Positions 8,522 to 25,318 of a stretch of DNA of 64,000 bases are shown here, in pieces. The notes beneath the pieces are model-generated. The model ran no database searches. It was given only the letters and a program-made list of their open reading frames with translations, and was not told the origin of the DNA. The stretch comes from a virus (Duplodnaviria > Caudoviricetes), in the IMG/VR virus record IMGVR_UViG_3300027782_000030, positions 1 to 64,000 of that record. One strand, given 5' to 3'. The translations under genes were made by a program, and so were the position numbers. Each line of letters opens with the position of its first letter. Position 1 is the first letter of the stretch.

Positions 8522-8550
8522 ATTATAGCAAACCGCCCATTTATTGTCAA
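8522..8550 (-). promoter_or_regulatory. sigma70-type promoter
   Basis: TTGACA-N17-TATAAT with TG extension. Confidence 0.85.
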
Positions 8551-19381: not shown

Positions 19382-19410
19382 ATTATACATGCCTACCGAT
19401 TAATTGTCAA
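19382..19410 (-). promoter_or_regulatory. sigma70-type promoter
   Basis: TTGACA-N17-TATAAT with TG. Confidence 0.85.
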
Positions 19411-23372: not shown

Positions 23373-23933
23373 CTAACTCAATAAAATTCTACTATGTTTT
23401 GGTAATCCTGCTCTTAAATAATCCATCTGATCAGCCAAAATATTACGATTTTGTAATATCATATTTTCAAAATGATTTGGCACATATGGAACATATAGAA
23501 GTTCCATTCTTGCCTCTTTAAGAGTTTTACACCCTTTCATAGCGTTACAATCTCTACACGCCGTAACTACATTCATCCATACATTTTCCCCACCTTTGCT
23601 TTTGGGGATAATATGGTCTCTGCTTAGGCTGTTAACATTGGGAAAATAATCACCACAATATGCACAGATATGTCTATCTCTACCAAACAATGTTCTATTG
23701 CCTAGTGCTACTTTACTATGCTTAGTTGGATTAAATCCATGTCCTTTGATAGCAATAATTGATTGAGTTTCAATGTAACTTAGTTCGCCATTGCGTTGAA
23801 TTCCACCACGATATTTAGCCACAATTTCACCCATAGTCCATGCAACACTTTTGGTTGCATGGTAAAGAATTGCGTTATCATATGAAATCCACTGTCGGGG
23901 CGTTCCCGATATATCCAGTGCTAAAACTGACAT
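23373..23933 (-). CDS. HNH endonuclease (McrA-like)
   Basis: RDRHICAYCG...DHIIPKSKGG...NVVTACRDCN..KG. Confidence 0.9.
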   Translation of the reverse strand: MSVLALDISGTPRQWISYDNAILYHATKSVAWTMGEIVAKYRGGIQRNGELSYIETQSIIAIKGHGFNPTKHSKVALGNRTLFGRDRHICAYCGDYFPNVNSLSRDHIIPKSKGGENVWMNVVTACRDCNAMKGCKTLKEARMELLYVPYVPNHFENMILQNRNILADQMDYLRAGLPKHSRILLS

Positions 23934-24033: not shown

Positions 24034-24110
24034 TGGTGCACCCTGAGAGATTCGAACTCCCGACCTTTGGTTTCGAAGACCAACACTCTAATCCACTGAG
24101 TTAAGGATGC
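24034..24110 (-). tRNA. trnR: tRNA-Arg(TCG)
   Basis: TTGGT-CTTCGAA-ACCAA; CCA. Confidence 0.92.
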
Positions 24111-24112
24111 AA

Positions 24113-24292
24113 TTATGCAAGTTTACTTTCTGGTATTTTTTTAAGAGAATCTTTGCGAACCAAACAATCTCTTTGAGTACCATATTTAAACACACGCAAA
24201 TATTCAATACCATCAATCAACCTAATGTCGTTAGGGTTCTTACATGAATATTTTTCTTTATTAACTAAATTTTCAAAATATGTTGTTTTCAT
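24113..24292 (-). CDS. Small hypothetical protein (59 aa, MKTTYFENL...)
   Basis: AAGGAG RBS; below ORF-track cutoff. Confidence 0.6.
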   Translation of the reverse strand: MKTTYFENLVNKEKYSCKNPNDIRLIDGIEYLRVFKYGTQRDCLVRKDSLKKIPESKLA

Positions 24293-24310
24293 GATTACTC
24301 CTTATAATGA

Positions 24311-24495
24311 ACACTCTGGGGCCTCGCCTTACCAGGGCAAGCCTATGTCCGTCCCAAAGTGTGTAGTAAAACATACTACAATGTAATATGCTTTACTACT
24401 CGGTATTTTTCAAGCCACATGAGACTATCCATCCACCGCGCCGCCCGTTTCTCCTATTTATAGTGCGGAGTAGGTCCTCGTTACCTTACACTGTC
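24311..24495 (-). ncRNA. Putative structured RNA or 5' leader directly after a sigma70 promoter
   Basis: 13-bp stem GTAGTAAAGCATA/TATGTTTTACTAC, 10-bp ACACTTTGGG/CCCAGAGTGT, GGCTTGCC/GGCGAGGCC, AGGT/ACCT; no ORF. Confidence 0.6.
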
Positions 24496-24500
24496 TTTCA

Positions 24501-24529
24501 ATTGTATCTCAATCTTCCTTTTCTGTCAA
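24501..24529 (-). promoter_or_regulatory. sigma70-type promoter at the head of the tRNA array
   Basis: TTGACA-N17-TACAAT. Confidence 0.8.
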
Positions 24530-24533
24530 CCAT

Positions 24534-24560
24534 AAAAAAACCTCGGAATATTCCGAGGTT
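24534..24560 (-). terminator. Intrinsic terminator (attenuator terminator)
   Basis: AACCTCGGAA-TA-TTCCGAGG followed by a T7 tract. Confidence 0.85.
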
Positions 24561-24584
24561 CTGATAATTTGTATGATTTACTTG

Positions 24585-24680
24585 TTATCCAAACCTCGGA
24601 GTAGCCCTTCTATTAGATAGAGGATAGGCTGTCTCCAACGACCATGATTTAATATAGGTTGATAAGAAACAAGTTTTCAT
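24585..24680 (-). CDS. Putative 31-aa attenuator leader peptide MKTCFLSTYIKSWSLETAYPLSNRRATPRFG
   Basis: Its last 16 nt are complementary (15/16) to the terminator 5' arm and flank; follows CATAAATA. Confidence 0.6.
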   Translation of the reverse strand: MKTCFLSTYIKSWSLETAYPLSNRRATPRFG

Positions 24681-24685
24681 AAAGC

Positions 24686-24693
24686 TATTTATG
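24686..24693 (-). promoter_or_regulatory. T4-late-like promoter
   Basis: CATAAATA 5 nt upstream of the leader ATG. Confidence 0.6.
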
Positions 24694-24715
24694 CCTCATA
24701 AATTATTTTAAATAA

Positions 24716-25318
24716 TTACCAACTAGCTAACACACAATACCTAGTGTATACTTCCAATGGCAATGTCCAAGCATCTTCTATTTTAAATCCACGAGCTACT
24801 AACTCTTGTATCAAAGGATCGGTACTAGTAACTGTATTAATATGTGTATCTATTTGAAAATCGGTGCTTTGTAGATAAACATATCCTGAATCAGACTTTT
24901 TAAAGTTTAGCCAATCATAGTTCATGTGTTCACATGACGTATTAACTATCAATGTCTCATTCTTAATATTATCTTCCCACGCATTACATTGAGTTACATC
25001 GGCGATGATTGATTTAAAGTCCCAATCATAGTTTAATTTTCTACTGAAATTAGCCCAAAAATGATCTAGTTCAATTCCTATAGCACTTTTGATAATATCA
25101 TGTTCATGTAACATATGGGGCAGCATACCATGCCACTGACCCATAAAGATACAATAATAATCAGTTAAATTAGATAGATGTTTAACTGCACCTATCTTGC
25201 TATGCAGTTGTGAATAAGTTAACCCATGTCTTAGATGCCTATGTGTGGCTTCATCAACATTTAAACCCCATTCACTAACTTGTATGAGTCGCCCAATTGA
25301 ATTGGCTAGTTTTTCCAT
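24716..25318 (-). CDS. Class I methyltransferase-like phage protein
   Basis: MGQWHG...GIELD...VNTSCEHM. Confidence 0.6.
   Translation of the reverse strand: MEKLANSIGRLIQVSEWGLNVDEATHRHLRHGLTYSQLHSKIGAVKHLSNLTDYYCIFMGQWHGMLPHMLHEHDIIKSAIGIELDHFWANFSRKLNYDWDFKSIIADVTQCNAWEDNIKNETLIVNTSCEHMNYDWLNFKKSDSGYVYLQSTDFQIDTHINTVTSTDPLIQELVARGFKIEDAWTLPLEVYTRYCVLASW

What the first reader, a model, noticed from the sequence alone, without database searches (positions are those of the whole stretch)
24534..24693. Leader-peptide attenuator that could switch on the tRNA array when translation fails
Seen (minus strand): CATAAATA, a 31-codon ORF, then a terminator. The last 16 nt of the ORF (TCCGAGGTTTGGATAA, 24600-24585) pair at 15/16 positions with TTATCAGAACCTCGGA (24567-24552), which includes the terminator 5' arm, so the two helices are mutually exclusive. 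Established: ribosome-mediated attenuation. Unlike amino-acid operon leaders, this peptide has no single-residue run: it samples 16 amino acids, including TTA, CTA, TCA, ACA, AGA, GGA, TGG and TGT codons read by tRNAs in the array. Inference: a ribosome reaching the stop masks the antiterminator so late transcription ends, while stalling (tRNA shortage or host tRNA cleavage) permits read-through into the tRNA genes. This would be a general translation-stress sensor for phage tRNA supply.
Basis: partly seen in the sequence, partly recalled or inferred. Interest (0 to 1): 0.8.

Follow-up and report, generated by a model that had tools for sequence, protein, structure and literature searches.

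The report
Leader mini-gene switch before phage tRNAs
At the head of a giant lake phage's tRNA gene array sits a conserved 31-codon mini-gene whose end can pair with a transcription stop signal; this probably lets late transcription run on towards the tRNA genes only when ribosomes lag, but expression was not tested and the array has its own promoters.

Summary
On the minus strand, GGCATAAATAG lies 5 nt before the ATG of a 31-codon ORF (24680-24585). Its last 16 nt (A) pair with the 5' arm (B) of a strong intrinsic terminator (B:C). No shuffle in 2000 gave pairing this strong.

I found the cassette in 12 sequences of about 5 lineages, always at the head of a tRNA array, although the upstream gene differs. 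The ORF stays open in all 12 (31-35 codons, indels in threes). Yet its body is the fastest-evolving part (dN/dS about 0.3-1.0). That pattern suits a leader peptide.

ATAAATA marks late genes here (portal, baseplate). In 16 genes of 75 codons or more it sits 4-6 nt before the ATG, so the mini-ORF has a real leaderless gene start.

Caveats:
- Covariation is clear for the terminator and only suggestive for A:B, which is weakened in one lineage.
- A conserved sigma-70 promoter follows the terminator, and further near-consensus matches lie inside the array. The switch could gate only the late input.
- The codon-sampling argument fails: 63% of leader codons are readable by phage tRNAs against 60% genome-wide.
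- No RNA data could be obtained.

Best reading: a ribosome-dependent attenuator, a new variant of a known kind. Unchecked notes from this scan describe similar cassettes in other giant phages. I found no publication.

The parts
24685..24695 (-). Late-type promoter motif GGCATAAATAG, 5 nt upstream of the leader ATG
   Evidence: Invariant core in all 12 relatives; the upstream sequence differs between lineages, so the conserved cassette begins here. ATAAATA lies within 60 nt upstream of 36 of 186 genes on the same strand, against 12 in the opposite-strand control, and precedes portal, baseplate, terminase and virion genes.
24585..24680 (-). Leader mini-ORF, 31 codons plus TAA (MKTCFLSTYIKSWSLETAYPLSNRRATPRFG)
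   Evidence: Open in 12 of 12 sequences with lengths of 96-108 nt, all multiples of 3; the other two frames carry 1-5 stops. dN/dS is 0.3-1.0. It has the same ATAAATA-N4-6-ATG layout as 16 ORFs of 75 codons or more in this contig.
24585..24600 (-). Arm A: 5' strand of the antiterminator, formed by the last 13 nt of coding sequence plus the stop codon
   Evidence: The core CCGAGG is kept, or changed only C to U (still pairing as G-U), in all lineages, although those changes alter the amino acid.
24578..24588 (-). Invariant box ATAACAAGTAA (stop codons in frames 0 and +1; start of the antiterminator loop)
   Evidence: Invariant in 12 of 12 sequences. Its function is unknown.
24552..24567 (-). 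Arm B: shared strand, the 3' strand of the antiterminator and the 5' arm of the terminator
24534..24562 (-). Intrinsic terminator: 11-bp stem, AUAU loop, U7 tract
   Evidence: 99% of cells are paired across the 12 sequences, and one pair changes AU to CG (3 sequences) and AU to UA (1 sequence).
24501..24529 (-). Sigma-70-type promoter TTGACA-17-TACAAT, 8 nt after the terminator
   Evidence: Matches 11 of 12 positions. The hexamers are conserved while the 17-nt spacer varies among lineages.
24300..24495 (-). Conserved structured RNA (about 190 nt) between that promoter and the next ORF; context, not part of the switch itself
   Evidence: 54 predicted pairs, a few of them compensatory. No Rfam family matches.
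24113..24292 (-). 59-aa ORF with AGGAG ribosome-binding site, the first gene downstream
   Evidence: homologues at 58-100% identity in 23 IMG/VR loci. In every distant locus inspected except two (L024, L025) it lies next to tRNA-like sequence, without the cassette.
24034..24110 (-). tRNA-Arg(TCG), first of 21 tRNA genes on this strand

Best explanation
This is a ribosome-dependent transcription attenuator built on a leaderless late mini-gene. A late-type promoter (GGCATAAATAG) starts an RNA at or within a few bases of the ATG of a 31-codon ORF. The last 16 nt of the ORF, stop codon included (A), can pair with the 5' arm (B) of a strong intrinsic terminator (B:C). A is made before C, so A:B forms first unless something covers A. 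A ribosome that has reached the last codons or the stop covers A but not B, which starts 17 nt after the stop. B then pairs with C and the late transcript ends at about 24534-24538. If the ribosome started late or is decoding slowly, A:B holds B and the polymerase runs on. It then passes through the sigma-70 promoter, the structured RNA and the 59-aa ORF into the tRNA genes. The cassette therefore sets how much late-promoter transcription is added to an array that also has its own sigma-70 promoters. Shown: the sequence anatomy, its conservation, the maintained reading frame, the alternative helices and the link between the motif and late genes. Inferred: the transcription start, translation of the ORF, termination, the direction of the switch, and any link to tRNA supply.
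For: (1) The alternative pairing exceeds chance: 0 of 2000 shuffles reached it, and it is the only one of 7 terminators with such a partner. (2) In the MFE of the nascent RNA, before C is made, the B core pairs with the A core in all 7 representative sequences. The spacing from stop to B core is fixed at 25-27 nt. (3) L007 has two doubly compensated A:B pairs and a perfect 16/16 helix. Two independent C to U changes in the A core keep pairing while changing the amino acid. (4) The terminator shows covariation. (5) The ORF is open in 12 of 12 sequences and three or more indel events are all multiples of 3. P(open) is about 0.2 per divergent lineage under random substitution. The ORF body differs at 27-38% of sites against 0-31% in the flanking elements, and dN/dS is 0.3-1.0. 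The adjacent 59-aa protein is 93-100% identical in the same lineages. (6) ATAAATA-N4-6-ATG occurs 22 times against 7.8 expected. Sixteen of these open ORFs of 75-697 codons, among them the portal and a virion protein. A 6-nt insertion in one clade lies after the ATG and so keeps the motif-to-ATG spacing. (7) Wherever enough downstream sequence is held, tRNA genes follow on the same strand, while the upstream neighbour differs.
Against: A:B covariation is not significant against shuffles (212/500 and 274/500; only the percentage of cells paired is marginal, 9/500). Nine of the 15 pairs never vary. In the L012/L042/L041 clade the middle of A:B is broken. Only a 7-8 bp core remains, or a shifted 12-bp register, at about -7 kcal/mol. 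At equilibrium the terminator wins in 5 of 7 sequences even without a ribosome, so antitermination would have to be kinetic. No conserved anti-antiterminator (region 1) was found, so untranslated RNA would read through by default. There is no Shine-Dalgarno sequence. The leader has no regulatory codon run and no enrichment for codons read by phage tRNAs. A conserved sigma-70 promoter directly follows the terminator and further near-consensus promoter matches lie inside the array, so the downstream genes do not depend on read-through. No transcript or ribosome data could be obtained.
Confidence: 0.5

Rival explanations
1. An ordinary small late gene followed by an insulating terminator. The late promoter and the leaderless ATG make a 31-35 aa micropeptide with its own function. 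The terminator only keeps late transcription from running over the sigma-70 promoter of the tRNA array. The A:B complementarity shapes the 3' end of the finished mRNA (stability, or hiding the stop region) and does not regulate read-through.
For: The start architecture is the same as that of real late genes. K, C, W, L and R are invariant in the peptide. Terminator followed by promoter is a common insulating layout. At equilibrium the terminator wins in most lineages. A:B is weakened in one clade without loss of the cassette.
Against: The peptide evolves far faster than its neighbour: about 40% identity against 93-100% in the same lineages, with dN/dS up to 1.0. A segment inside the coding sequence that pairs with the terminator 5' arm at -20 kcal/mol is not expected for a plain gene, and it is kept through compensatory and wobble-compatible changes that alter the amino acid.
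Confidence: 0.27
2. A non-coding element. It could be a small late RNA of about 160 nt, or a set of three copies of a DNA site (TCCGAGG twice direct, once inverted) bound by a phage protein next to the sigma-70 promoter. The open frame would then be incidental.
For: Three copies of the 7-9 nt core lie within 65 bp, just upstream of the -35 hexamer. In L007 all three copies changed at the same position (T/A/T to A/T/A), as co-evolving binding sites would. No Shine-Dalgarno sequence precedes the ATG.
Against: Frame 0 is open in 12 of 12 sequences with indels in threes, while the other frames are closed. A:B complementarity extends 7 nt beyond the repeated core and covaries there (G-C to A-U). 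B:C followed by U7 is a canonical RNA terminator. In the L012 clade the three copies no longer change together.
Confidence: 0.1
3. A discriminator between transcript origins. Transcripts reading in from the upstream gene carry the mini-ORF internally, without a ribosome-binding site. They are not translated, form A:B and pass. Transcripts from the late promoter are leaderless, are translated and terminate.
For: No terminator lies between the upstream 200-aa gene and the cassette, a gap of 35 nt. Default read-through without a ribosome follows from the lack of a conserved region 1.
Against: In L012 the cassette follows about 150 nt of non-coding DNA. In L011 it overlaps the stop of a different gene. 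Read-in transcription is therefore not a constant feature. This reading is purely inferential.
Confidence: 0.08

Closest known systems
Leader-peptide transcription attenuators of enterobacterial amino-acid operons (trpL, hisL, pheL, leuL, thrL, ilv leaders)
   Same: A short ORF lies upstream of an intrinsic terminator. The antiterminator and the terminator share one strand. The stop codon is placed so that a terminating ribosome covers the antiterminator's 5' strand, like region 2 of trp. The antiterminator must act kinetically because the terminator is at least as stable.
   Different: There is no run of codons for one amino acid and no conserved region 1 or pause hairpin, so untranslated RNA should read through rather than super-attenuate. 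The start is probably leaderless, from a phage late promoter. What lies downstream is a tRNA array with promoters of its own, not a biosynthetic operon. The Rfam His_leader model scores 19.6 bits against a threshold of 49.
Leader-ORF attenuators that respond to general ribosome slowing (antibiotic-responsive leaders of erm, vmlR, msr and bmrCD genes; the tet(M) leader of Tn916); cited from my own knowledge, not checked here
   Same: A short ORF without a single-residue run. The position or speed of the ribosome on the leader, not one amino acid, chooses between terminator and antiterminator.
   Different: Those leaders have Shine-Dalgarno sites and often specific arrest peptides, and they control resistance genes in bacteria. 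This one is in a phage, is driven by a late promoter and precedes tRNA genes.
T4-type late promoters (TATAAATA at -10, no -35 element); from my own knowledge
   Same: An ATAAATA core without a -35 element. It is strand-biased upstream of genes and sits in front of portal, baseplate, terminase, tail-fibre and virion genes.
   Different: The first base is not T here (G/C-ATAAATA). In 16 genes the motif lies only 4-6 nt from the ATG, which implies leaderless mRNAs. I did not look for a gp55-like late sigma factor.
Leader-ORF plus terminator cassettes in front of tRNA arrays of other giant phages, noted earlier in this scan (unchecked AI notes)
   Same: A mini-ORF, then a terminator/antiterminator, then a tRNA array in large uncultured phages.
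   Different: Those notes report leaders spelled in the codons of the tRNAs that follow. That match is absent here. I tested none of those loci.

Membership tests
Leader-peptide (ribosome-mediated) transcription attenuator | Short ORF directly upstream of an intrinsic terminator | tested here: met
   A 31-codon ORF ends 22 nt before an 11-bp stem with a U7 tract.
Leader-peptide (ribosome-mediated) transcription attenuator | Antiterminator helix that excludes the terminator by sharing a strand | tested here: met
   A:B is -20.7 kcal/mol and B:C is -15.9. A:B is present in the nascent-RNA MFE of 7 of 7 representatives. No shuffle in 2000 reached the observed pairing.
Leader-peptide (ribosome-mediated) transcription attenuator | Both helices supported by covariation | tested here: inconclusive
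   Terminator: yes. A:B: 2 compensated pairs and 2 wobble-compatible changes, but not above shuffles, and the helix is weakened in one clade.
Leader-peptide (ribosome-mediated) transcription attenuator | ORF end placed so that a ribosome at the last codons or stop masks the antiterminator strand | tested here: met
   The stop codon forms the last 3 nt of arm A. B starts 17 nt after the stop. This geometry is kept in all lineages.
Leader-peptide (ribosome-mediated) transcription attenuator | Leader ORF is translated | not testable with these tools
   Indirect evidence only: the frame is kept in 12 of 12 sequences, indels come in threes, and the start layout matches real genes.
Amino-acid operon leaders (trpL/hisL type) | Cluster of codons for the sensed amino acid | tested here: not met
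   No residue run; 16 amino-acid types in 31 residues.
Amino-acid operon leaders (trpL/hisL type) | Region 1:2 pause or anti-antiterminator hairpin | tested here: not met
   The UUGGAG/CUCCGA pairing seen in the window is not kept in L007 or L012.
Amino-acid operon leaders (trpL/hisL type) | Downstream genes depend on read-through (no promoter in between) | tested here: not met
   A conserved TTGACA-17-TACAAT lies 8 nt after the terminator. Further near-consensus promoter matches lie inside the array.
Codon-matched tRNA-array leaders (earlier notes of this scan) | Leader codons or amino acids enriched for those served by the phage tRNAs | tested here: not met
   Codons: 63% in the leader against 60% genome-wide. 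Amino acids: 81% against 77%, P=0.39.
T4-type late promoter | ATAAATA core, strand-specific, upstream of late (virion) genes | tested here: met
   36 genes on the same strand against 12 in the control; found before portal, baseplate wedge, terminase, virion protein and tail fibre genes.
T4-type late promoter | Phage late sigma factor (gp55-like) present | not tested
   The contig is 58% complete. I had no family accession at hand.

The most novel reading that the evidence does not exclude
A codon-agnostic sensor of translation speed. A leaderless mini-ORF is fired from a late promoter, and its ribosome must keep pace with RNA polymerase for the transcript to terminate. When translation in the infected cell slows for any reason, late transcription runs on into the tRNA array. 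That would close a feedback loop between translation capacity and phage tRNA supply. It would be one member of an unpublished class of leader-ORF attenuators in front of the tRNA arrays of giant phages.
Probability: 0.35. Interest if true: 0.8.

Novelty: new variant of a known kind. Interest (0 to 1): 0.6.

Why it matters
Phage tRNA arrays are usually treated as constitutive codon-usage helpers or as spares against host anticodon nucleases. How their expression is controlled is largely unknown. A translated leader wired to a terminator at the head of an array would show that a phage measures translation and adjusts transcription towards its tRNA genes. It would extend trp-type attenuation to RNA genes, to a phage late promoter and to a leaderless mRNA. 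The cassette is about 165 nt long and self-contained. It has natural variants with stronger and weaker antiterminators (L007 and L012), so reporter tests are straightforward. The common ATAAATA-N4-6-ATG gene starts also point to widespread leaderless late mRNAs in this phage group, which matters for gene calling.

Tried and rejected
**Searches that found nothing**
- GenBank phage searches found no relative: near DNA, distant DNA, and tblastn with the upstream 200-aa protein.
- An exact terminator pattern, and the 200-aa protein as a query, found nothing in IMG/VR.
- Rfam gave no match above any family threshold. The best hits over the cassette were MicX at 22 bits and His_leader at 19.6 bits, all far below threshold.
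- The ESM Atlas gave no lead for the 59-aa protein. Pfam and PHROGs found nothing for the leader peptide, the 59-aa ORF or the 200-aa gene.
- Literature searches found no report of a leader-peptide attenuator before phage tRNA genes.

**Leads that did not hold**
- Distant homologues of the 200-aa gene (41-48% identity; L005, L006) lack the cassette downstream. It does not travel with that gene.
- L044 matched the degenerate pattern by chance.
- The only other short ORF behind ATAAATA-N4-6-ATG (50 codons, at 114745) is an ordinary small gene overlapping the next one.
- The 8-mers ATAAATAG and TATAAATA are not enriched in the window as plain counts. The promoter case rests on position and strand relative to genes.

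- Codon and amino-acid matching to the phage tRNAs showed no enrichment.
- A trp-like region 1 is not conserved.
- Equilibrium switching by a ribosome mask is seen only in the window, L003 and L007.

Full report
**1. What is there**

On the minus strand the 200-aa gene ends at 24716. After 20 nt comes GGCATAAATAG (24695-24685), and 5 nt later the ATG of a 31-codon ORF (24680-24585). The ORF's last 16 nt, TAA included, form arm A at 24600-24585.

Seventeen nt after the stop lies arm B (24567-24552). B pairs with A through 14 Watson-Crick pairs, one G-U and one mismatch. B is also the 5' arm of an 11-bp hairpin with an AUAU loop and seven U, at 24562-24534.
- Folded alone, A:B is -20.7 kcal/mol (z -5.7) and the terminator is -15.9.
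- With the upstream 82 nt shuffled 2000 times, the best A/B duplex never reached the observed -20.3 kcal/mol (mean -8.7, sd 2.2).
- Of the seven strict terminator hairpins in the 200-kb contig, only this one has a strong upstream alternative partner.

**2. Setting**

The window is the first 64 kb of a 200,570-bp IMG/VR contig, estimated 58% complete, with 36% G+C. Its portal protein is closest (51-55% identity) to those of Agrobacterium phage Atu_ph07, Sinorhizobium phage Phosso and Pseudomonas phage PA5oct, which are giant myoviruses. A near-identical cassette lies on a 335-kb metagenome contig (L009).

All 21 tRNA genes are on the minus strand, downstream of the cassette, between 24110 and 9257. 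Four things lie between the terminator and the first tRNA:
- a near-consensus sigma-70 promoter (TTGACA-17-TACAAT, 24529-24501);
- a structured RNA of about 190 nt;
- a 59-aa ORF with an AGGAG ribosome-binding site (24292-24113);
- then, 2 nt later, tRNA-Arg.

**3. Relatives**

GenBank phages gave nothing. I reached further copies through homologues of the upstream protein, one metagenome pattern scan and IMG/VR pattern and protein scans. The result is 12 sequences in about five lineages (alignment A5):
- window, L008, L009
- L003, L004, L010
- L007
- L012, L042, L041
- L011, L043

Wherever enough downstream sequence is held, the sigma-70 promoter, the structured RNA, the 59-aa ORF and tRNA genes follow the cassette on the same strand.

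Upstream, the neighbour differs. It is the 200-aa gene in the window lineage, a gene ending in a rubredoxin-like motif whose stop overlaps the motif in L011, and about 150 nt of non-coding DNA in L012. Conservation begins exactly at GG(C/G)ATAAATAG. Distant homologues of the 200-aa gene lack the cassette.

More distant homologues of the 59-aa ORF (58-81% identity) lack the cassette, and nearly all of those inspected lie next to tRNA-like sequence. The cassette therefore belongs to one clade and travels with the head of its tRNA array.

**4. Is the ORF real?**

- The ATG is invariant and the stop lies in an invariant box, ATAACAAGTAA.
- ORF lengths are 96, 99, 105 and 108 nt, always a multiple of three, through at least three indel events.
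- Frame 0 has no internal stop in any of the 12 sequences, while the other frames carry 1-5 stops.
- The ORF body is nevertheless the fastest-evolving part of the cassette. In the four divergent lineages, 22-31 of 81 sites differ from the window, against 0-5 of about 16 in each flanking element.
- Random substitution at that density keeps the frame open only about 20% of the time per lineage.
- dN/dS is 0.3-1.0. The adjacent 59-aa protein is 93-100% identical in the same lineages.

A frame that is kept while its peptide drifts is what a leader ORF should show. K, C, W, L and R are invariant, so some constraint on the peptide cannot be excluded.

**5. The start**

- It lies within 60 nt upstream of 36 of 186 crude genes on the coding strand, against 12 on the opposite strand.
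- It precedes the portal, baseplate wedge, large terminase, virion protein and tail-fibre genes. It therefore behaves as a late promoter of the T4 kind (family knowledge).
- In 16 of the 36 motif-bearing genes the motif ends only 4-8 nt before the ATG.
- ATAAATA-N4-6-ATG occurs 22 times against 7.8 expected, and 16 of these ATGs open ORFs of 75-697 codons.
- If transcription starts about 6 nt after the motif, as at T4 late promoters (my own knowledge), these mRNAs are leaderless.

The mini-ORF has exactly this layout. In the clade with two extra codons, the insertion lies after the ATG, so the motif-to-ATG spacing is preserved. This answers the lack of a Shine-Dalgarno sequence. It also makes transcription and translation of the mini-ORF plausible, though neither is shown.

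**6. The helices**

The terminator is paired in 99% of cells. One pair changes AU to CG in three sequences and AU to UA in one.

For A:B the picture is mixed:

| Measure | Result |
|---|---|
| Cells paired | 89% |
| Pairs that never vary | 9 of 15 |
| Pairs with double changes | 2 (L007 becomes a perfect 16/16 helix) |
| One-sided C to U changes in the A core | 2, independent; both keep G-U pairing and change the amino acid |
| Covariation measures vs shuffles | not above shuffles |

In the L012/L042/L041 clade three central pairs are lost. Only the 7-8 bp core remains, or in L012 a shifted 12-bp register reaching into the terminator loop.

In the MFE of the nascent RNA, before C is made, the B core pairs with the A core in all seven representatives. 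The distance from stop to B core is fixed at 25-27 nt.

At equilibrium over the whole transcript, a ribosome mask at the stop always gives the terminator. Without a mask, or with a ribosome at the Trp codon, the antiterminator wins only in L003 and L007, and partly in the window. Elsewhere it could act only kinetically, as the trp antiterminator does (my own knowledge). No conserved region-1 partner for A was found.

**7. How it most likely works**

I read the cassette as a three-segment attenuator on the late-promoter transcript.
- A ribosome at the end of the ORF covers A, so B:C forms and the transcript ends.
- A lagging or absent ribosome leaves A free to capture B first, so the polymerase reads on towards the tRNA genes.

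First, the codon-sampling argument has no force. Sixty-three per cent of the leader codons are readable by the phage tRNAs, against 60% genome-wide. Sixteen amino-acid types in 31 residues, and 81% coverage by amino acid, are both ordinary (P=0.31 and 0.39).

Second, the array does not depend on read-through. The sigma-70 promoter right after the terminator keeps its hexamers while its spacer varies. Further 11-12/12 matches sit at 19410, 15951, 13825 and 13189 on the same strand, and another (12/12) at 8550, just beyond the last tRNA. The cassette can gate only the late input.

The physiological signal is unknown. Translation, termination and the direction of the switch are inferred.

**8. 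Rivals**

- A plain micropeptide gene with an insulating terminator fits the promoter and the terminator-promoter layout. It does not explain the maintained complementarity inside the coding sequence or the fast-drifting peptide.
- A non-coding RNA, or a triple protein-binding site, fits the three TCCGAGG copies. It does not fit the maintained frame or the pairing beyond the repeated core.
- A device that lets read-in transcripts pass but stops leaderless late transcripts is possible and untested.

**9. Known and new**

Rfam has no match. The searchable literature has no leader-peptide attenuator ahead of phage tRNA genes.

Notes from this scan describe similar cassettes in other giant phages. 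They are unchecked AI notes and I did not test them. Their codon-matching feature is absent here.

I class the finding as a new variant of a known kind, ribosome-mediated attenuation.

Noticed in passing
whole contig G000, e.g. window 10358(-), 14451(-), 19629(+), 25365(+), 32077(-); contig 73331(-) portal, 164571(+) virion protein: Sixteen ORFs of 75-697 codons start 4-6 nt after an ATAAATA motif (22 occurrences against 7.8 expected). This implies that many late mRNAs of this phage are leaderless.
   Followed up: partly
window 24300-24495 (-): A structured RNA of about 190 nt lies between the sigma-70 promoter and the 59-aa ORF. It is almost invariant across lineages, has 54 predicted pairs (a few compensatory) and an outer 10-bp stem kept even where the interior is replaced (L011). 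No Rfam family matches.
   Followed up: partly
window 24113-24292 (-); loci L018-L040: The 59-aa ORF (MKTTYFENLV...) has homologues in 23 IMG/VR loci. Most distant homologues inspected lie next to tRNA-like sequence. This suggests a small protein of unknown function that travels with phage tRNA arrays. There are no Pfam, PHROG or Atlas leads.
   Followed up: partly
window 19410-19382, 15951-15922, 13825-13797, 13189-13161, 8550-8522 (all -): Further 11-12/12 sigma-70 consensus matches lie on the tRNA strand, four inside the array and one (8550) just beyond its last tRNA. Total promoter-like matches are no more frequent than in shuffles.
   Followed up: no
window 24578-24588 (-): The box ATAACAAGTAA is invariant in all 12 sequences although most of it lies in the antiterminator loop. 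It provides stop codons in frames 0 and +1. The reason for its conservation is unknown.
   Followed up: no
whole contig G000: Only 7 strict intrinsic-terminator hairpins (perfect stem of 7 or more pairs, T5 or longer) occur in 200 kb. Such terminators are rare in this phage, and the one at the head of the tRNA array stands out.
   Followed up: no
window 23373-23933 (-): An HNH endonuclease gene lies between tRNA-Arg and tRNA-Thr. A homologous HNH gene sits at the same place in L003.
   Followed up: no
L003 7213-7755 (+): In relative L003 a nucleoside phosphorylase-like gene (PNP_UDP_1) replaces tRNA-Arg between the 59-aa ORF and the HNH gene. The first position of the array therefore varies among close relatives.
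   Followed up: no
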